Shown: positions 1 to 7,093 of the stretch, in pieces
Numbering within the stretch: position 1 is the stretch's first letter
Layout: each line of letters opens with the position of its first letter
Virus record (IMG/VR): IMGVR_UViG_2563366937_000008
Direction: 5' to 3' (one strand)
DNA: 7,093 nt
Source: a virus
Lineage: Duplodnaviria > Heunggongvirae > Uroviricota > Caudoviricetes
Program-made: the position numbers and the translations under genes
The notes under the pieces: generated by a model
The model's input: the letters and a program-made list of their open reading frames with translations, nothing else
What the model was told of the DNA's origin: nothing
Database searches by the model: none

Positions 1-147
1 CACACCCTGCACCCATTCATGCAAAATCAACGTGTCCCCGCGCTCATAATTACGATCTTTTTTCCGAAACTCTGCGCGTTTCTTTCCTTCCAGTACAAGG
101 TCGAAATATTTTGCGTGCAGCTTTACCTCGTGAATTTTTGCCATCAT
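1..147 (-). CDS. N-terminal fragment of a small protein immediately downstream of A, possibly ASCH/PUA-like; runs off the window edge
   Basis: My own translation of the minus strand from the ATG at 147..145 (or 144..142) gives MMAKIHEVKLHAKYFDLVLEGKKRAEFRKKDRNYERGDTLILHEWVQGV with no stop before position 1. GGAG sits 5 nt upstream of the ATG, and the start overlaps the A stop codon (ACATGATGG). The pattern hydrophobic-x-x-L-x-G-K-K-x-x-E-x-R ... G-D-x-L resembles ASCH-type small domains; this assignment is tentative. It is absent from the ORF track because no stop lies in the window. Confidence 0.45.
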   Translation of the reverse strand, partial: MMAKIHEVKLHAKYFDLVLEGKKRAEFRKKDRNYERGDTLILHEWVQGV

Positions 148-2429
148 GTCCACTCCATTACTGTTGAGAATCCCGGCCACTCATCAGCGACCGGATACGT
201 GAATTTTTTCCCGTCATAATTTACGGTTGCTCCACGCGCCAGCGCCTCAAGTTCCCATCGCTGAGGCCTGATACCGTTCTGAGCAAGGTCAACGCGGATA
301 CGGGTGATCTGCAATCGTTCAGACCTGGTCAGTCTGGCAGATGGTGCAATTTCATGCGGTTTTAACGGGCTTCCGTTTCTTTGCTGACGGTTTGGCGTTC
401 TCATGTCGTATTTTAATGCGCCCCTGAGCGCCCTCACGACCTCCGGTTCATTCCATTCAATAACACCGTCATCAACCAGATTAAGCACTGCTGCGGCGTG
501 CTCAGAAGGTGTGGGAGCCGGTAACGAAGTATCACCACCGGTGAGCTTTCCACAGTTATTGACAGGACTCCGAGGCGCGGCGATGCCGCTTTTTAAAGTC
601 AGAGGCTCAACGACCGGAACTTTCGGCACAATGCGCCAGTCCGTCGTTCTGGTGATATGAATATGACGCGCGCCGAGATGCGGCGCGTAAATGCCGACCA
701 CTCTCTCGACTTCTTCCTCGTACTCGTTAACTTCATCCGACGGACTACGGGCGACCCTGACAGTCTGACAATCGCGCGGGACATTTGCCCCACCCTGCGC
801 GCTGATATACAACGCAAAATCACCACTGTCTGCGGCGGCGCGTGCAGCCTCGACGCGCTCGTCAAACTCATCAGCAATGCTGACGCCGCGAGGCAATTTG
901 CGTAGTTCACGGTAAGCCCCCATTGTCGGCAGACCAACCGTTTTAAATTGTGGGATGCGCCACGTTGACGCCCATGCGGTAACAGCCGCAGCAGTGTCTT
1001 TCAGCGGTCTGCCGGTATCGTTATCGAGCTGACCATCCAGTGCATAGCCATCGATGTTTTTTGAGATGTATTTCGCGATATACCCCGCAGCACCGCCCTG
1101 GTTAAGGTGTTTTGCCTGAAAACGGTTTCGCGCGGCTCCTCTTTCGTCGCCATCCTCTTTGAGCGCATAGCGACGCATGATTTCGATAATCTGGTTACGC
1201 TGGCGTGGATTACAAAAAAGCATCATATGCCAGTGCGGCGTTCCGTCGTGGTGTGGCTCGACGACACGCAAACCGTAGACCTGTAAATCATTATCTTTGA
1301 ATGCCGTGCGCATCAGGCTCCAGATATGGCAGAGATAACGCTGCGCATCCTTTGGATTAAATGCCTCATCGTTCCAGCCGTGATTTAGCTGGACGGTTTT
1401 ACTTTCGCCTTTTCCGACCTGACGTGTCGGGTGATACTTTGAAGGCGCGGTAAGCGTGATAAACATCCCCACATCACCCTCTGCGGCGGCGTAACGCTCA
1501 ATACCGGCAATGGTGTTCATCAGCTCCATCCGGCGAATTTCAGGATTAGAAATACTGCCCATCACCTTACTGATAAGGTCGATGCGCTCGCCGGTTTCCC
1601 TGTTTTCAAGGTCACACGATTTAAGAAATTCCAGATTTGCCTGGCGGCGTGCACGCACATCACGAATGGCATGTTTACTGGCATAAGGAGAACGGTCTTT
1701 ATTCACCTCCCCGACAGCAATCAGTAACGCCTCATGCCAGCGCATACGCTGGCCTTTGAGCTGATGAGTCCACCACTCATCGTTAAACAGACGGGCAATG
1801 GCAGAATATGCCTGCCTCGTGGTCATCTGTCCTTTACGGTATTTTTTCCAGTAAAGCGGGGAAATATTGAAAGCACGTGCAGCGCCAGCAACATGACCAT
1901 AGAGGTGAGCCTGCGCCTCATCCGTAAACAGCGATTCTTTTTCGCCATGTGCATCCACCCAGGCATCGCTGAGTTCCTCATACATCATGAAAAGCTGCGA
2001 TGAGATACGGGCGGCAAACTTTTTCAGCTCCTTGTCATTCATTCCCGGCAGGCGCGCATAGTGGTCACGCTCTGCCAGAAACAGCAACGACGCGTCGGTG
2101 TTCATTTCATGGCGCTGATTCACACGCTCAATGCGCGGCCATAAACGACGCTGAAAAGTGGATGTGAGGAAATAAAACCCGTGCACCGGGCTTTTATTGC
2201 GCCGGATGTAGTCATAGCGTGAAGTAAACAGCGAGCGCAAAAAGTAAGGCAGGCGGTTAATCGTGGATAAAACACCTTGCATCTGACGCATCTCGTCACG
2301 TGTAAGGGGTCTTTCGCGCCCGACGGCCTCGCGTGGCGCGTTCCATGCATAAGCACCGGTAAACATCTTACCGGTGCCTGCGGCAAATGCTGACGGAGGG
2401 ACAAAACGCCCGGAGGCTTTAACGGCCAT
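144..2429 (-). CDS. A: Replication initiation protein A, a rolling-circle HUH-type endonuclease (761 aa from the first ATG)
   Basis: Track ORF 144..2471 begins at a TTG (plus-strand caa at 2469..2471). The first in-frame ATG is at 2429..2427 (MAVKASGRF...), giving 761 aa. HUH motif PHWHMML (HWH at nt 1227..1235) and paired tyrosines in YIAKYISK (Tyr codons at 1080..1082 and 1068..1070) are hallmarks of the phiX174 A / P2 A initiator family. Stop TGA at 146..144. Confidence 0.9.
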   Translation of the reverse strand: MAVKASGRFVPPSAFAAGTGKMFTGAYAWNAPREAVGRERPLTRDEMRQMQGVLSTINRLPYFLRSLFTSRYDYIRRNKSPVHGFYFLTSTFQRRLWPRIERVNQRHEMNTDASLLFLAERDHYARLPGMNDKELKKFAARISSQLFMMYEELSDAWVDAHGEKESLFTDEAQAHLYGHVAGAARAFNISPLYWKKYRKGQMTTRQAYSAIARLFNDEWWTHQLKGQRMRWHEALLIAVGEVNKDRSPYASKHAIRDVRARRQANLEFLKSCDLENRETGERIDLISKVMGSISNPEIRRMELMNTIAGIERYAAAEGDVGMFITLTAPSKYHPTRQVGKGESKTVQLNHGWNDEAFNPKDAQRYLCHIWSLMRTAFKDNDLQVYGLRVVEPHHDGTPHWHMMLFCNPRQRNQIIEIMRRYALKEDGDERGAARNRFQAKHLNQGGAAGYIAKYISKNIDGYALDGQLDNDTGRPLKDTAAAVTAWASTWRIPQFKTVGLPTMGAYRELRKLPRGVSIADEFDERVEAARAAADSGDFALYISAQGGANVPRDCQTVRVARSPSDEVNEYEEEVERVVGIYAPHLGARHIHITRTTDWRIVPKVPVVEPLTLKSGIAAPRSPVNNCGKLTGGDTSLPAPTPSEHAAAVLNLVDDGVIEWNEPEVVRALRGALKYDMRTPNRQQRNGSPLKPHEIAPSARLTRSERLQITRIRVDLAQNGIRPQRWELEALARGATVNYDGKKFTYPVADEWPGFSTVMEWT

Positions 2430-2694
2430 ATGAGCCAAAAGCCTCTGAACAACGCTTGCTGAGTTGCTCAACCTGCACGTTTAAATCAGCAAAAGACTTT
2501 GCGCTTCCGGTCAGAATATCGTGATGCATCAGGCCTGAAACGAGCTGGCTTAATTTCGGGTAATAACCAACCACCGCCAGCCATTCCTGACCGGCGTTTT
2601 TACCGCTTTCCGCTCTCTTTTTCTCGTGGAGAATAAACTGAAAGCTGTCACTGGTAACGACATAACGTTCGCCAATTTCAATACGAATACTCAT
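2419..2694 (-). CDS. Hypothetical small protein (91 aa), last small ORF before A
   Basis: ATG at 2694..2692 with GGAGA about 6 nt upstream. The start overlaps the upstream ORF stop (ATGA). Its 3' end overlaps the A start region by 11 nt. No recognisable motif. Confidence 0.6.
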   Translation of the reverse strand: MSIRIEIGERYVVTSDSFQFILHEKKRAESGKNAGQEWLAVVGYYPKLSQLVSGLMHHDILTGSAKSFADLNVQVEQLSKRCSEAFGSYGR

Positions 2695-2915
2695 GCCGTT
2701 CTCCGGTAATGTTTGTTTTTTGCTTCAAAGACTGACTGACAGGAAACACAACGCGTGGCTGACGGGTAAGCCGCACGACGGGCAGCAGGTATTGGCGCGT
2801 CACACTCTTCGCAAACCAGCGCAGAAGCACCGCAATGTTTTACCCTTGCCGCGTTAATCTGGCGCTCCAGTAATTCAGCCTGTTGTTCCTGAATAAAATC
2901 TACGTTGTCCGGCAT
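2691..2915 (-). CDS. TraR/DksA-family C4 zinc-finger protein (74 aa)
   Basis: Two CxxC pairs 17 residues apart (C35-E-E-C38 and C56-V-S-C59) preceded by an acidic N-terminal helix (DNVDFIQEQQAELLERQ), the typical phage TraR-like layout. ATG at 2915..2913 with AAGGA upstream; start overlaps the upstream ORF stop (TAATG). Confidence 0.75.
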   Translation of the reverse strand: MPDNVDFIQEQQAELLERQINAARVKHCGASALVCEECDAPIPAARRAAYPSATRCVSCQSVFEAKNKHYRRTA

Positions 2916-3217
2916 TACCAGTTCCTTTTGTCGTTCAGTTTTTTAAATTCATCAGCGCAATAGCTGGCGATTTCTGTCGTTAATTTCGTCAGTTCATCCA
3001 CGGAGGAAATTTGCTTGTGAAATACAGCGCGTTTAACAAGTAAATTGACCACATCAGACAGGAGGTTTAATTCACTCTGATAAATCGCGATAACAGATTC
3101 AGTTATTTCGCGTTTTTCTTTATCAAGACCAAGTTGAATAAGAGACAAATCGCCATTTTTCATAACGGCGATTTTTAAGGCGTTATTCAGTAATACAACT
3201 GCACGAGAACAGAACAT
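2915..3217 (-). CDS. Hypothetical acidic helical protein (100 aa from the ATG at 3217), AT-rich
   Basis: Track ORF 2915..3220 starts at a TTG. The adjacent ATG at 3217..3215 has GGAGG 9 nt upstream and overlaps the upstream stop by 1 nt (TGATG). By manual count the coding sequence is about 37% GC over 2941..3180, against about 55% in a sampled A segment. An alternative internal start at 3163 (82 aa) lacks an SD. Confidence 0.55.
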   Translation of the reverse strand: MFCSRAVVLLNNALKIAVMKNGDLSLIQLGLDKEKREITESVIAIYQSELNLLSDVVNLLVKRAVFHKQISSVDELTKLTTEIASYCADEFKKLNDKRNW

Positions 3218-3441
3218 CAAAGCACCTCCCCGCGAGACAATCCGATATTGTGAAATTTTTCCGACTCCTGACTGAGCAGCTCGACTATCTCCACGCGGGA
3301 TAACTCCGCCTTTGTGATGTGGCGAATCATGGCATCAAGATGAGAAGAAAAGCGCGTCGCAGCGTCGGCCTGTGCTTCGGTTCTGGCCTGTTGCAGCAGT
3401 AATGCGTATATACCGCACTGATTTTCAGAAACTGTATGCAT
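3217..3441 (-). CDS. Hypothetical small protein (74 aa from the ATG at 3441), first ORF downstream of B
   Basis: Track ORF 3217..3474 starts at a TTG with no SD. The in-frame ATG at 3441..3439 is preceded by GGAGA with 5-6 nt spacing (MHTVSENQ...). Stop TGA at 3219..3217. Confidence 0.5.
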
Positions 3442-3504
3442 AACTTTCTCCAGGCAAAAAGAAGCCCCGCACAATTAAGTGCGTTAAAAACTCTGGTTAA
3501 TTAC

Positions 3505-4005
3505 TTAATGCAGATATTGCTCCGGTTTTACCGACGTCAGAATTGTCGGTGCATACTCAAACAGACTGAATAATTCACGTAATGCACGGAATAAAGCATC
3601 ACGCCAGTAACATGACTCTTCATTAATTCGCCAGTATGGCTGGTTGAATTCTTTTTCAGTCAATCCGGCATGCATAAATAAAGTACGACGCTGACTGACT
3701 GTTAAAAAACTAATATATGCATACTCACTTGCGCCAACCTGACGGCGTTTTGAGAATGCACCACGCAATTCATCAATTGCACATACCAGTCGTTCACGTT
3801 CGACGTCGTTCATTTCTTCAAAACACATCGTTGCGTGACGCTGTTTTAACTGAGCATGGAAGCAAACCGTTAACCGTTCGCGCTCCATCATCTGATTATA
3901 ATAATCACATGTATCCTGCCAGCGAGGAACGGCAAGATGCTTACCAATTATCCGGCGCATAGCTGCTGGCTGTTTTTCAACGAGATTGAGCGTCATCACT
4001 GTCAT
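3505..4005 (-). CDS. B: Replication protein B (166 aa), P2 B-like
   Basis: Track ORF 3505..4011 is 168 aa. The ATG at 4005..4003 (MTVMTLNL...) has GGAGG 8 nt upstream and gives 166 aa, the size I recall for P2 B. It sits between cox and A in the leftward early operon. Start overlaps the upstream small ORF stop (ATGA). Confidence 0.7.
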   Translation of the reverse strand: MTVMTLNLVEKQPAAMRRIIGKHLAVPRWQDTCDYYNQMMERERLTVCFHAQLKQRHATMCFEEMNDVERERLVCAIDELRGAFSKRRQVGASEYAYISFLTVSQRRTLFMHAGLTEKEFNQPYWRINEESCYWRDALFRALRELFSLFEYAPTILTSVKPEQYLH

Positions 4006-4172
4006 TTCCATACCCTCCGGCTTTTCAGAAAGGTCAGAGCCTTTTTTAACGGACTCTGTTTTTTGGTGCGGATAATGATTCCCTTACGCCCCTTACCGTG
4101 GGTGATGGTGAAGTCAATCGCCCTGGGGCTTTCGTTACGCAGTAACTGAGCAATACAACGAGGCTCATTCAT
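4002..4172 (-). CDS. Small basic protein (56 aa) between cox and B
   Basis: Track ORF 4002..4196 starts at a GTG inside cox. The ATG at 4172..4170 has a strong SD (AAGGAG, 6-nt spacer) that begins right at the cox stop. Product MNEPRCIAQLLRNESPRAIDFTITHGKGRKGIIIRTKKQSPLKKALTFLKSRRVWK is very K/R-rich at the C-terminus. Confidence 0.45.
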   Translation of the reverse strand: MNEPRCIAQLLRNESPRAIDFTITHGKGRKGIIIRTKKQSPLKKALTFLKSRRVWK

Positions 4173-4182
4173 ACGGTTCTCC

Positions 4183-4458
4183 TTAACGTGGTTCACCGAG
4201 ACCTAACCACATCAACCAGCCGTCACGAATCTCTTTAGGGCGGCTTTCATAAGCCAGTTTTAGTCCGTTATTCCATGCCGGAAGGTATACCCAATATTCA
4301 CCTGCACGACCTGAAGCTGATTGTGGATCGGTCATATCAATTACAGGCAGCTTTCCTTTATCGATCATCCGACGAACCGCTCCTGTCGATTTTCCTATTA
4401 GTTTTGCGAACTCCTGATAAGGAATCGCATCAGTCATGAGTGTTACTTGCTTGCTCAT
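4183..4458 (-). CDS. cox: Cox-like protein (91 aa): repressor of Pc and excision directionality factor in P2
   Basis: ATG at 4458..4456, stop TAA at 4185..4183. First gene downstream of the leftward Pe promoter and divergent from C. Contains an HTH-like segment (YQEFAKLIGKSTGAVRRMIDKGKLPVI). Size and N-terminal sequence match my memory of P2 Cox. Confidence 0.85.
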   Translation of the reverse strand: MSKQVTLMTDAIPYQEFAKLIGKSTGAVRRMIDKGKLPVIDMTDPQSASGRAGEYWVYLPAWNNGLKLAYESRPKEIRDGWLMWLGLGEPR

Positions 4459-4539
4459 GTCGTCCTCTAGCCCTCATGAATTGCGTTTAATGTCTTATAA
4501 TGCCTTTTAGTGCCCACATCCAAGCACTAAACAATCTAC

Positions 4540-4569
4540 ATCTAAACTAAATACTATTGAGATCTAAAC
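4540..4569. promoter_or_regulatory. Operator: two 8-bp direct-repeat half-sites (GTTTAGAT on the minus strand) spaced 22 bp, flanking the Pe -10
   Basis: Plus-strand atctaaac at 4540..4547 and 4562..4569; a partial third copy (GTAGAT) lies at 4534..4539. Direct repeats flanking the -10 of Pe are the described binding architecture of P2 C repressor. Confidence 0.6.
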
Positions 4570-4579
4570 ACCATGTCAA
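4551..4579 (-). promoter_or_regulatory. Early promoter Pe (leftward, drives cox-B-A operon)
   Basis: Minus-strand TTGACA (4579..4574), a 17-nt spacer, then TAGTAT (4556..4551). The -35 overlaps the C start codon. Transcription is convergent with the C transcript, as in the P2 face-to-face Pe/Pc arrangement. Confidence 0.7.
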
Positions 4580-4872
4580 ACACGATAAGCGAGAAGATAG
4601 TCTTAATGCGAAAATCAGAGTATTTGAGCAGACAACAACTTGCTGATTTAACAGGGGTTCCGTATGGCACGCTGAGTTACTATGAAAGTGGTCGTTCAAC
4701 ACCTCCAACAGATGTCATGATGAACATCCTGCAGACCCCACAATTCACCAAATACACTTTATGGTTCATGACCAATCAGATCGCTCCTGAGTCCGGGCAA
4801 ATTGCGCCCGCTCTCGCACACTTTGGGCAAAACGAAACAACGTCGCCCCACTCCGGTCAAAAGACTGGTTAA
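4573..4872 (+). CDS. C: Immunity repressor C (99 aa)
   Basis: ATG at 4573, stop TAA at 4870..4872. HTH-like segment LSRQQLADLTGVPYGTLSYYESG. Located between the switch region and int, on the same strand as int. Size and sequence match my memory of P2 C. Confidence 0.85.
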   Translation: MSNTISEKIVLMRKSEYLSRQQLADLTGVPYGTLSYYESGRSTPPTDVMMNILQTPQFTKYTLWFMTNQIAPESGQIAPALAHFGQNETTSPHSGQKTG

Positions 4873-4987
4873 CAATTCATCGTGAATATATTCATCACAA
4901 GTGCCTACTATTGGTGGCTAAATTTCAGCCACCACGAAAAAAGCGATTAGTAGTCGCAAAAAAACACACCACTCGGAGGGTTTTCTG

Positions 4988-6001
4988 ATGGCAATCAAAA
5001 AACTCGATGATGGTCGATATGAAGTGGACATCCGCCCTACTGGACGTAATGGAAAACGCATCCGTAGGAAGTTTGATAAGAAAAGCGAAGCTGTCGCTTT
5101 CGAGAAATACACGTTGTACAACCACCACAATAAAGAATGGCTATCAAAACCAACAGACAAGCGACGTCTGTCGGAGCTGACACAGATCTGGTGGGATTTA
5201 AAGGGTAAACACGAAGAGCATGGGAAATCTAATCTTGGAAAAATTGAAATCTTCACAAAAATAACGAATGACCCATGCGCATTTCAAATTACGAAATCGC
5301 TTATCAGCCAGTACTGCGCCACCCGAAGAAGTCAGGGTATTAAACCTTCGAGTATCAATCGTGATTTAACATGTATTAGCGGCATGTTTACAGCCCTGAT
5401 TGAAGCGGAGTTATTCTTTGGTGAGCACCCTATCAGAGGGACAAAAAGGCTTAAGGAGGAAAAACCAGAAACAGGCTATCTAACACAGGAAGAAATTGCC
5501 TTACTGCTTGCAGCACTTGACGGCGACAATAAAAAGATTGCGATTCTTTGCCTGAGTACAGGAGCACGTTGGGGAGAAGCAGCTCGTTTGAAAGCAGAAA
5601 ATATCATCCATAACCGCGTCACGTTTGTTAAAACGAAAACAAACAAACCACGCACCGTCCCGATCTCAGAGGCTGTTGCCAAAATGATCGCGGATAACAA
5701 ACGAGGTTTTTTATTCCCTGATGCTGATTACCCTCGCTTCAGACGAACAATGAAAGCAATAAAACCGGATTTGCCAATGGGGCAAGCCACACATGCACTA
5801 AGGCACAGCTTTGCCACTCATTTCATGATTAATGGAGGAAGTATTATCACGCTACAACGGATACTAGGTCACACGCGGATTGAGCAAACTATGGTTTACG
5901 CTCATTTTGCGCCAGAGTACCTTCAGGACGCCATTTCTCTTAATCCGCTAAGAGGTGGTACTGAGGCCGAGAGTGTCCACACAGTGTCCACAGTAGAGTA
6001 A
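4988..6001 (+). CDS. int: Tyrosine integrase (337 aa), P2 Int-like
   Basis: ATG at 4988 with GGAGG 8 nt upstream. Tyrosine-recombinase motifs are present: Arg in LSTGARWGEAARL, the H-x-x-R box in HALRHSFATH, and the catalytic Tyr in QTMVYAHF. The 3' end lies about 80 bp from the att core. Confidence 0.92.
   Translation: MAIKKLDDGRYEVDIRPTGRNGKRIRRKFDKKSEAVAFEKYTLYNHHNKEWLSKPTDKRRLSELTQIWWDLKGKHEEHGKSNLGKIEIFTKITNDPCAFQITKSLISQYCATRRSQGIKPSSINRDLTCISGMFTALIEAELFFGEHPIRGTKRLKEEKPETGYLTQEEIALLLAALDGDNKKIAILCLSTGARWGEAARLKAENIIHNRVTFVKTKTNKPRTVPISEAVAKMIADNKRGFLFPDADYPRFRRTMKAIKPDLPMGQATHALRHSFATHFMINGGSIITLQRILGHTRIEQTMVYAHFAPEYLQDAISLNPLRGGTEAESVHTVSTVE
5972..5992. repeat. Tandem 10-bp direct repeat AGTGTCCACA x2 (11-bp periodicity) inside the 3' end of int; candidate integrase arm-type binding sites
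   Basis: Perfect copies at 5972..5981 and 5983..5992, both within the int coding sequence (encoding SVHTVSTV). The position about 90-110 bp from the core, direct orientation and helical-turn spacing are typical of arm sites. Assignment is by analogy, not verified. Confidence 0.5.
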
Positions 6002-6080
6002 CGTTTAAGGGCTTTCAGTGGTAATTTATGCCGCTCAAACCCGCATTGTACCGTTGAAAGCCCCTACTGGTGACACCCTA

Positions 6081-6107
6081 AATCTCCCTTACACGGGCTT
6101 ATTTTTT
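6081..6107. repeat. Attachment-site core (prophage/host junction), 27 bp: AATCTCCCTTACACGGGCTTATTTTTT
   Basis: This is the reverse complement of the P2 att core as I recall it (AAAAAATAAGCCCGTGTAAGGGAGATT), and is identical to the 3' terminator end of the enterobacterial sRNA CyaR (RyeE) as I recall it. Sequence to the left is phage (int); sequence to the right leads into host yegS. The body of cyaR is not in this window. Confidence 0.8.
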
Positions 6108-6193
6108 TGTACCACGACTTTCATCCTGTTCTGACACCGCCTTTTCTTTTCTGCTCTACACTATCTACAGACCAATCATAAAGGCATACGACC

Positions 6194-7093
6194 ATGGCAG
6201 ATTTCCCCGCCAGCTTACTGATTCTTAACGGCAAAAGTACTGACAATGAAACATTACGCGAAGCAATTATGCTGCTGCGTGAGGAAGGAATGACTATCCA
6301 TGTGCGGGTTACCTGGGAGAAAGGTGATGCTGCGCGTTTTGTTGAGGAAGCCCGCCAGCTTGGCGTGGCAACGGTGATTGCCGGCGGTGGCGATGGCACT
6401 ATTAATGAAGTCTCCACGGCGTTGATTCAGTGTGAGGGCAATGAAATTCCTGCTTTGGGAATATTGCCGCTAGGTACAGCGAACGATTTTGCCACCAGTG
6501 TGGGTATTCCTGAGGCGCTGGATAAGGCACTTAAACTGGCAATTGCTGGTAACGCTATTGCAATTGATATGGCACAGGTCAACAAACAAACCTGTTTTAT
6601 CAACATGGCAACGGGCGGATTTGGAACACGCATCACCACCGAAACGCCAGAGAAATTAAAAGCCGCGCTGGGTGGCGTCTCTTACATCATTCACGGCTTA
6701 ATGCGCATGGATACGCTGCAACCGGATCGCTGTGAAATCCGTGGTGAAAATTTTCACTGGCAAGGCGATGCGCTGGTTATTGGTATTGGCAACGGGCGTC
6801 AGGCTGGTGGCGGTCAACAACTGTGCCCAAATGCGCTGATCAATGATGGTTTGTTACAACTGCGTATTTTCACCGGCGATGAAATTCTTCCAGCTCTCTT
6901 TTCAACCTTAAAACCTGACGAAGAAAATCCGAATATTATTGAAGGCGCTTCGGCATGGTTCGAAATACAAGCGCCTCATGAAATCACCTTTAATCTTGAT
7001 GGAGAACCGTTAAGCGGGCAACGTTTTCATATCGAAATACTTCCGGCAGCATTGCGTTGCCGGCTACCACCAGATTGCCCGTTATTGCGTTAA
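6194..7093 (+). CDS. yegS: Lipid kinase YegS (299 aa), host gene
   Basis: Complete ORF, ATG at 6194 and TAA at 7091..7093. Carries the GGDGT signature ([13 protein letters not shown]) of the DAGK catalytic domain. The sequence is recognisable as enterobacterial YegS. Confidence 0.9.

What the first reader, a model, noticed from the sequence alone, without database searches (positions are those of the whole stretch)
1..147. Left edge sits at the entry to the phage family's variable cargo locus
A small ORF starts overlapping the A stop and runs out of the window. In P2 the genes after A (orf91, tin, old) form a locus that published work has shown to be a hotspot for diverse anti-phage defence cargo in P2-like prophages. 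If there is an undescribed system in this prophage, the DNA immediately left of this window is the most likely place. Nothing inside the window demonstrates it.
Basis: partly seen in the sequence, partly recalled or inferred. Interest (0 to 1): 0.45.

Follow-up and report, generated by a model that had tools for sequence, protein, structure and literature searches.

The report
Edge of phage P2's tin–old locus
The small gene cut off at the left edge is orf91 of bacteriophage P2 itself, and the DNA beyond it is almost certainly P2's long-known tin and old anti-phage genes, so nothing new is hiding there.

Summary
On the minus strand an ORF starts at 147, overlaps the A stop in an ATGA (144-147), has a GGAG 5 nt upstream and runs off the window. 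It is a real gene (Pfam DUF3850/ASCH).

The prophage is P2 itself, not just P2-like. Window 1-6107 has 3 mismatches to NC_001895 and none to E. coli EC50's prophage. The host is Escherichia ruysiae, with the phage integrated at a perfect 27-nt attB core beside yegS.

I could extend leftward only by proxy. Scaffold KB976076.1 (GCA_000398885.1) matches the window 100% in all non-gap sequence, including attR and yegS. Its next 3,089 nt are 100% identical to P2: the rest of orf91, then tin, then old, ending 42 nt short of cosR. Every contig read that encodes the window's exact gpA shows A-tin-old-portal, with orf91 called in most.

The hotspot premise is true and published (Rousset 2022). Sister prophages at this site carry a type VI retron, Lamassu or an uncatalogued three-gene set.

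One small extra: P2 Orf91 is chimeric. Homology to other orf91 genes stops at codon 75, where the AT-rich tin-old cassette begins.

Verdict: already known, low interest.

The parts
1..147 (-). First 49 codons of P2 orf91 (109 aa in full), the N-terminal two thirds of its DUF3850/ASCH (PUA-like) domain. It is the last gene of the early Pe operon.
   Evidence: Translation. Pfam DUF3850 E 4.3e-13. 100% identical to P2 orf91. Full-length protein: DUF3850 over residues 5-75, and PDB 3IUW at E 5e-11 over residues 4-75.
144..147 (-). ATGA overlap of the orf91 start (147..145) with the A stop (146..144). This arrangement implies translational coupling (inferred).
   Evidence: Sequence read directly. 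The P2 annotation places orf91 at 30316-30645 and A at 28034-30319.
153..156 (-). GGAG Shine-Dalgarno, 5 nt upstream of the orf91 ATG, inside the last codons of A.
   Evidence: Minus strand 175..130 reads CGGGATTCTCAACAGTAATGGAGTGGACATGATGG.
162..177 (.). Main recombination boundary of the variable locus. Most P2-like prophages and phages stop being homologous to the window here, in the last ~10 codons of A.
   Evidence: Spread sample of 1,685 E. coli records: only 353 align through orf91, and most alignments start at 162-177. L089 starts at 171 and L093 at 166. Phages P22H1 at 164 and P24C9 at 177.
144..2429 (-). Gene A (replication endonuclease gpA, 761 aa). The P2 ori nick site falls at window 571.
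   Evidence: Pfam Phage_GPA E 2e-124. P2 annotation, nick at 29892 = window 571. The three differences from reference P2 all lie here: 732 and 1641 synonymous, 1730 T234A.
2419..4458 (-). Rest of the P2 early operon: orf83, orf82 (DksA-type zinc finger), orf81, orf80, B, orf78, cox.
   Evidence: Pfam hits. P2 annotation. 100% identity to P2 over this stretch.
4573..6001 (+). Immunity repressor C (4573-4872) and integrase int (4988-6001).
   Evidence: Pfam HTH_3 and Phage_integrase. P2 annotation.
6081..6107 (.). attR core, 27 nt, identical to the P2 attP core and to the unoccupied attB of the same host lineage.
   Evidence: Window, P2 attP and empty site L090 compared side by side. P2 attP annotated at 24356-24382.
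6194..7093 (+). Host gene yegS (lipid kinase, 299 aa, complete). It identifies the host as Escherichia ruysiae.
   Evidence: 99% amino-acid identity to the E. ruysiae representative. Host DNA 97.4% identical to it and at most 88.5% to other Escherichia species representatives. About 89% identical to every E. coli.

Best explanation
The window is the right arm of a bacteriophage P2 prophage (Peduovirus P2 itself), integrated by Int at a perfect 27-nt attB core next to yegS in an Escherichia ruysiae chromosome.

The ORF at 147..1 is orf91, the last gene of the early Pe operon (cox-orf78-B-orf80-83-A-orf91). Because of the ATGA overlap with A and the operon position, it should be made only during lytic growth or induction (inferred). 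It encodes a small PUA-like/ASCH (DUF3850) domain protein of unknown function. By family, it is most likely a nucleic-acid (RNA or modified-base) binder (inferred).

In P2 this gene is chimeric. Codons 1-75 are the conserved DUF3850 domain. Codons 76-109 are an unrelated tail encoded by the start of an AT-rich foreign cassette.

That cassette, lying immediately left of the window, is tin-old. It is transcribed convergently from its own promoter beside cos and expressed in the lysogen. Old is an ATPase-TOPRIM nuclease that excludes lambda. Tin blocks T-even phages. After old come cos and the portal gene Q.

So the hotspot is occupied by its textbook cargo and by nothing else.
For: Identity of the phage:
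- Window 1-6107 has 3 mismatches to NC_001895 and 0 in 6108 nt to E. coli EC50's prophage.

Left flank by proxy:
- L092 (GCA_000398885.1, KB976076.1) matches the window at 100.000% in all 6,029 non-gap bases, including attR and yegS.
- Its 3,236 nt ending at window position 147 are 100.000% identical to P2. Orf91, Tin and Old have zero amino-acid differences.
- All 10 places shown (24 contigs read) that encode the window's exact gpA show A-tin-old-portal. Orf91 is called in 6 of the 10. Tin is 200 aa instead of 253 aa in L004.
- EC50 has 1 mismatch in the flank, then 383 nt, then the portal gene.

Gene identities:
- PADLOC Tin E 7e-98 and Old E 1e-214. Pfam AAA_15, AAA_21 and OLD-like_TOPRIM on Old.
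- The P2 record annotates the old-tin transcript starts and the phenotypes of both genes.

Literature:
- PMC9122126 names this locus a hotspot, states that reference P2 carries old and tin there, and re-tested old-tin experimentally.

Orf91 chimerism:
- 73 of 74 residues identical to a 150-aa DUF3850+DUF7415 protein up to codon 75, and nothing after.
- All other orf91 carriers break at L092 position 3013.
- GC is 0.46 in the DUF3850 part, 0.41 in the tail, and 0.33-0.35 in tin and old.
Against: The window's own record was never read beyond position 1. L092 has three scaffold gaps whose sizes differ from the true sequence, so it is a different assembly or strain of the same lineage, not the source.

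Cassettes at this locus swap often: 1,650 arrangements are reported. Three E. coli prophages (GF47, GF50, GF54) are 99.0% identical over the A 3' end plus DUF3850 yet carry the Wphi-type Dcm/ParB cargo instead of tin-old. The 147 nt inside the window are therefore not diagnostic on their own.

Orf91's biochemical function, its expression timing and the translational coupling are inferred, not shown.
Confidence: 0.95

Rival explanations
1. The source strain has undergone a cassette swap at the orf91 codon-75 junction or beyond. It would then carry cargo other than tin-old left of the window, possibly an uncatalogued defence system.
For: The locus is highly mosaic. GF47, GF50 and GF54 show a 99%-identical A 3' end plus DUF3850 joined to a different cassette. 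Sister prophages at the same E. ruysiae site carry a type VI retron, Lamassu, or an unknown three-gene set.
Against: Those sister prophages are only 96-98% identical to the window and lose homology before orf91, at window 166-481. The window is identical to tin-old carriers over 6.1 kb. The only record with the same junction and host sequence at 100% carries tin-old. Every contig read that encodes the exact gpA carries tin-old. The one documented swap (GF54) leads to the common, already described Wphi-type cargo.
Confidence: 0.04
2. The ORF at 147..1 is a chance open frame or a read-through of A, not a gene.
For: It is short, truncated by the window edge, and overlaps an antisense ORF on the plus strand (19-219).
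Against: Pfam DUF3850 at E 4e-13 on only 49 residues. PDB 3IUW homology. Conserved and annotated in 353 E. coli genomes and 27 phage records. Proper SD and ATG.
Confidence: 0.01

Closest known systems
Bacteriophage P2 (NC_001895 / AF063097), genes A-orf91-tin-old (the 'TO region')
   Same: 99.95% nucleotide identity over the whole phage part of the window. Same gene order, the same ATGA overlap and the same attP core. The proxy flank is 100% identical, including Orf91, Tin and Old.
   Different: Three substitutions in gene A, one of them non-synonymous (T234A). The host is E. ruysiae rather than E. coli, and there is no yegR between int and yegS.
P2-like gpA-gpQ defence hotspot (Rousset et al. 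2022, PMC9122126; earlier called the 'TO-region', PMC3091744)
   Same: Same locus, defined as lying between gpA and gpQ next to cos. The window's left edge is its gpA-side border. Variation among relatives was confirmed here.
   Different: This instance holds the reference cargo (old and tin), not a new arrangement.
Wphi gp91 / L-413C orf91: 150-aa DUF3850+DUF7415 proteins of other P2-like phages
   Same: Codons 1-75 are 96-99% identical. Same position and the same overlap with A.
   Different: They have a DUF7415 C-terminal domain and are followed by a small ORF, a Dcm-type cytosine methyltransferase and a ParB-like pair. P2's version loses all of this after codon 75 and has a 34-aa unrelated tail.
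PDB 3IUW, 'activating signal cointegrator' (ASCH domain, 83 aa)
   Same: Sequence homology at E 5e-11 over Orf91 residues 4-75, so the same PUA-like/ASCH fold is expected.
   Different: It is a structure of 83 aa with no function listed in the search result, so it gives a fold, not a mechanism. It has no counterpart of the P2 tail.

Membership tests
Bacteriophage P2 (species Peduovirus P2) | Near-identical nucleotide sequence to the reference genome | tested here: met
   6104 of 6107 nt identical to NC_001895. Only the right arm of the genome could be tested.
Bacteriophage P2 (species Peduovirus P2) | Gene order int-C / cox-orf78-B-orf80-83-A-orf91, with the P2 attP core at the junction | tested here: met
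   ORFs and Pfam hits. P2 annotation overlay. The 27-nt core at 6081-6107 is identical.
P2-like gpA-gpQ defence hotspot (TO region) | Lies between replication gene A and portal gene Q, next to cos | tested here: met
   The gpA end is in the window. In proxies L006 and L002 the order is A-orf91-tin-old, then 383 nt, then portal. L092 reaches 42 nt short of cosR.
P2-like gpA-gpQ defence hotspot (TO region) | Gene content varies among otherwise homologous prophages | tested here: met
   Five different contents at the same site in the same YegS lineage. Of 1,685 E. coli records, 353 keep orf91 and only 17 genomes keep tin-old.
   The proxy flank is 100% P2 orf91-tin-old. Tin and Old are catalogued in PADLOC.
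DUF3850 / ASCH (PUA-like superfamily) | Pfam score above the gathering threshold | tested here: met
   Window fragment 49.7 bits and full length 61.2 bits, against a cut-off of 22.9. ASCH 36-42 bits against 21.2.
DUF3850 / ASCH (PUA-like superfamily) | RNA or modified-nucleic-acid binding activity | not testable with these tools
   Only inferred from the superfamily. Preprint 10.1101/2025.10.10.680097 calls DUF3850 PUA-like and phage-enriched.
OLD-family nuclease (P2 Old) | N-terminal ABC-type ATPase plus C-terminal TOPRIM domain | tested here: met
   On L092 172-1932, which lies outside the window: PADLOC Old E 1e-214, and Pfam AAA_15, AAA_21 and OLD-like_TOPRIM.
Tin (P2 T-even exclusion protein) | Sequence match to the Tin model or to P2 Tin | tested here: met
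   On L092 2107-2868, which lies outside the window: PADLOC Tin E 7e-98, and 253 of 253 residues identical to P2 Tin.

The most novel reading that the evidence does not exclude
Despite the 100% match to tin-old carriers, the window's actual source could have swapped the cassette at the orf91 codon-75 junction and could carry an uncatalogued anti-phage system between orf91 and the portal gene.

A weaker but likelier novelty is that DUF3850 (Orf91) proteins are functional early-lytic nucleic-acid binders with a counter-defence or DNA-modification role. In other P2-likes they sit next to a Dcm methyltransferase, and P2 keeps only a truncated copy.
Probability: 0.04. Interest if true: 0.5.

Novelty: already known. 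Interest (0 to 1): 0.07.

Why it matters
It matters little for discovery. This is reference phage P2 carrying its classical lysogenic-conversion genes, so the finding can be closed.

Three modest points remain:
- It documents P2 sensu stricto as a natural prophage of Escherichia ruysiae, at an attB with a perfect 27-nt core.
- It pins the two recombination joints of the P2 hotspot to the base: the last ~10 codons of A, and codon 75 of orf91. It also shows that P2's Orf91 is a truncated chimera, which is relevant to anyone trying to assign a function to DUF3850.
- It points to sister prophages at the same site as better places to look for unknown cargo, in particular the three-gene set in L094 and L095.

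Tried and rejected
- Looked for the source among complete E. coli genomes. Rejected, because the host DNA is only ~87-89% identical to any E. coli.
- Asked whether ≥99% identity of the left end predicts tin-old. Not strictly: 12 of the 17 tin carriers are ≥99%, but GF47, GF50 and GF54 are 99.0% identical without tin. This argument was therefore not used as proof.
- Asked whether the N runs in L092 are deliberate masks of the window. Rejected, because their lengths (553, 664 and 565) differ from the true sequence they replace (198, 644 and 222 nt). They are scaffold gaps.
- Scanned the flank for RNA families (Rfam, E ≤ 0.1): no matches.
- Scanned for promoter and terminator consensus sites around the orf91/tin junction. 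The counts did not exceed the shuffled controls: 4 promoter-like sites against 13 expected, and 2 terminator-like sites against 2.2 expected. The one terminator-like hairpin nearby lies inside the tin 3' end (2819-2833).
- PADLOC and NCBIfam on Orf91: no hits.
- Odegrip 2006 (PMC1367236) is not held in the library.
- The 2026 NAR survey (PMC13586616) mentions neither orf91 nor DUF3850.
- Structure prediction of full-length Orf91 was not attempted.

Full report
**1. The observation**

The minus strand of the left edge reads …GGAGTGGACATGATGGCAAAA…. An ATG sits at 147..145, and the A stop codon TGA at 146..144 overlaps it (ATGA). A GGAG lies 5 nt upstream. The frame stays open for 49 codons to position 1.

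The fragment alone scores 49.7 bits on Pfam DUF3850 (cut-off 22.9, E 4e-13) and also hits ASCH. The upstream gene is the replication endonuclease gpA (E 2e-124).

**2. What the window is**

Reading right from the left edge, the window holds:
- orf91' and A;
- orf83, orf82, orf81, orf80, B, orf78 and cox, all on the minus strand;
- C and int on the plus strand;
- a 27-nt att core;
- a complete host yegS, whose stop codon is the last base of the window.

Window 1-6107 matches bacteriophage P2 itself (NC_001895 24356-30462) with three substitutions. All three are in A: two synonymous and one T234A. It matches the prophage of E. coli EC50 with none in 6108 nt.

The host side is not E. coli:
- It is about 87-89% identical to all 5,423 E. 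coli genomes that match.
- It is 97.4% identical to the Escherichia ruysiae species representative, and at most 88.5% to any other Escherichia representative.
- Unoccupied sites in the same YegS lineage (L086-88, L090) carry an attB whose 27-nt core is identical to attP.

This is therefore an ordinary Int-mediated P2 lysogen of E. ruysiae.

**3. Extending to the left**

The window's own record is not available, so I used exact-protein look-ups.

(a) *The window's exact gpA.* It occurs in 527 blocks of the collection. All 10 places shown (24 contigs read) show A, tin (253 aa, or 200 aa in L004), old (586 aa) and the portal gene. The 109-aa orf91 is called in 6 of the 10.

(b) *The window's exact YegS.* This led to L092 (GCA_000398885.1, scaffold KB976076.1). 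L092 matches the window at 100.000% in all 6,029 non-gap bases, including the attR junction and yegS. The scaffold has three gaps whose sizes differ from the real sequence. It is therefore another assembly or strain of the same lineage, not the source itself.

Window position 1 equals L092 position 3090. L092 1-3236 is 100.000% identical to P2. Orf91, Tin and Old have no amino-acid difference, and the locus reaches 42 nt short of cosR. In EC50 the same flank has one mismatch and is followed by 383 nt and the portal gene.

PADLOC recognises Tin (E 7e-98) and Old (E 1e-214). Pfam shows the ATPase and OLD-like TOPRIM domains of Old.

It is met, with the caveat that the evidence comes from proxies.

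**4. Is the hotspot premise right?**

Yes. Rousset et al. 2022 (PMC9122126) define the gpA-gpQ locus as a hotspot, with 1,650 arrangements in 18,150 loci. They note that reference P2 carries old and tin there, and they re-confirmed old-tin activity. The older name 'TO-region' appears in PMC3091744, where Orf91 is listed as 'unknown'.

I reproduced the variability at this very site. In hosts with the identical YegS, the site holds one of the following after A:
- nothing (the site is empty);
- P2 with tin-old (L092);
- a type VI retron (L089; RT_VI E 2e-106 and HTH_VI);
- Lamassu LmuB/LmuC with a 78-aa LmuA remnant (L091);
- about 1 kb without called genes (L093);
- three uncatalogued genes (L094 and L095).

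**5. Where the borders are**

- Of 1,685 E. coli records that match window 1-700, only 353 align through orf91. Most alignments begin at 162-177, in the last codons of A, and some begin at 194-486.
- Only 17 of 5,426 genomes carry tin-old.
- Among 50,697 phage records, only P2 itself carries it.
- Every other orf91 carrier (Wphi, L-413C, the Yersinia phages and about 360 E. coli prophages) loses homology at the same base. That base is L092 3013, which lies 76 nt left of the window edge, at codon 75 of orf91.

**6. Orf91 itself**

The full-length protein has DUF3850 over residues 5-75 and matches PDB 3IUW (ASCH domain) at E 5e-11 over residues 4-75.

In other P2-likes the gene encodes 150 aa (DUF3850 plus DUF7415). 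On the same strand it is followed by a small ORF and a Dcm-type methyltransferase, then by a ParB-like pair. P2 Orf91 is 73/74 identical to that protein up to codon 75 and unrelated afterwards.

GC falls at the same point: 0.46 in the DUF3850 part, 0.41 in the tail, and 0.33-0.35 in tin and old. It returns to about 0.55 at the portal gene.

So P2's Orf91 is a truncated chimera created where the AT-rich tin-old cassette joins.

*Inferences, not shown.* Its position, ATGA-coupled to A in the Pe operon, implies lytic-phase expression. That contrasts with tin and old, which have their own promoter by cos. The fold suggests nucleic-acid binding. Neither point was tested here.

**7. Residual doubt**

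Three E. coli prophages (GF47, GF50, GF54) are 99.0% identical over the A 3' end plus DUF3850 but carry the Wphi-type cargo. The 147 nt in the window therefore cannot by themselves prove what follows. The case rests on three things:
- the 6.1-kb perfect identity to tin-old carriers;
- the identical junction and host sequence in L092;
- the constant A-tin-old-portal linkage in every contig read that encodes the exact gpA.

I put the tin-old reading at about 0.95.

**8. Verdict**

This is reference phage P2 with its classical, experimentally characterised cargo: already known, interest low.

Noticed in passing
L092 2907-3236 (orf91); the junction at L092 3013 lies 76 nt left of window position 1: P2 Orf91 is a chimera. 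Codons 1-75 are the conserved DUF3850 domain, 99% identical to the 150-aa DUF3850+DUF7415 protein of Wphi-like phages. Codons 76-109 are an unrelated tail that starts exactly where GC drops into the tin-old cassette. All non-P2 orf91 carriers break at this same base.
   Followed up: yes
L094 1775-3934 and L095 1767-3926 (sister prophages at the same yegS site): A three-gene cargo of 376, 129 and 220 aa. The only domain hits are a weak HATPase_c_2 match and a DUF4325 (STAS-like) match. There are no PADLOC 2.0 or NCBIfam hits. It occurs in 15 of 5,426 complete E. coli genomes. It may or may not be the three-gene, P1-protecting system of Rousset 2022. This is the best lead for uncatalogued cargo near this finding.
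   Followed up: partly
L010, L011, L012, L099 and many hits (record coordinates 1730-2429, 2283-2506, 1586-2506): Many 'complete' E. coli and E. ruysiae chromosome records begin exactly at the start codon of a P2-like gene A. The assembly was presumably rotated by a start-gene tool that mistook the prophage replication gene for a replicon start. This splits the prophage across the record ends.
   Followed up: partly
L091 9227-9326, compared with window 4437-5519: The Lamassu-bearing sister prophage lacks about 1.08 kb covering C and the 5' half of int, and its LmuA is reduced to a 78-aa fragment. It looks like a decaying, locked-in prophage.
   Followed up: partly
window 6081-7093; L086-L090: E. 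ruysiae lacks yegR between the P2 attachment site and yegS, whereas E. coli has it. Its empty attB carries a perfect 27-nt match to the P2 attP core. P2-like prophages of at least five cargo types use this site in this lineage, including the species representative (L012).
   Followed up: partly
window 1730 (gene A codon 234): The window's gpA has Ala234 where the reference P2 record has Thr. The Ala form is the exact protein found in 527 blocks of public assemblies, so the reference (laboratory) P2 may carry the minority allele.
   Followed up: no
window 4437-4742: L012 and L095 align on both sides of this stretch (the Pe/Pc operator region and the 5' part of C) but not across it in megablast. 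This suggests a different immunity type in those sister prophages.
   Followed up: no
window 19-219 (+): A 66-aa antisense ORF overlaps the orf91/A junction. No evidence was seen that it is a gene, so it is probably spurious.
   Followed up: no
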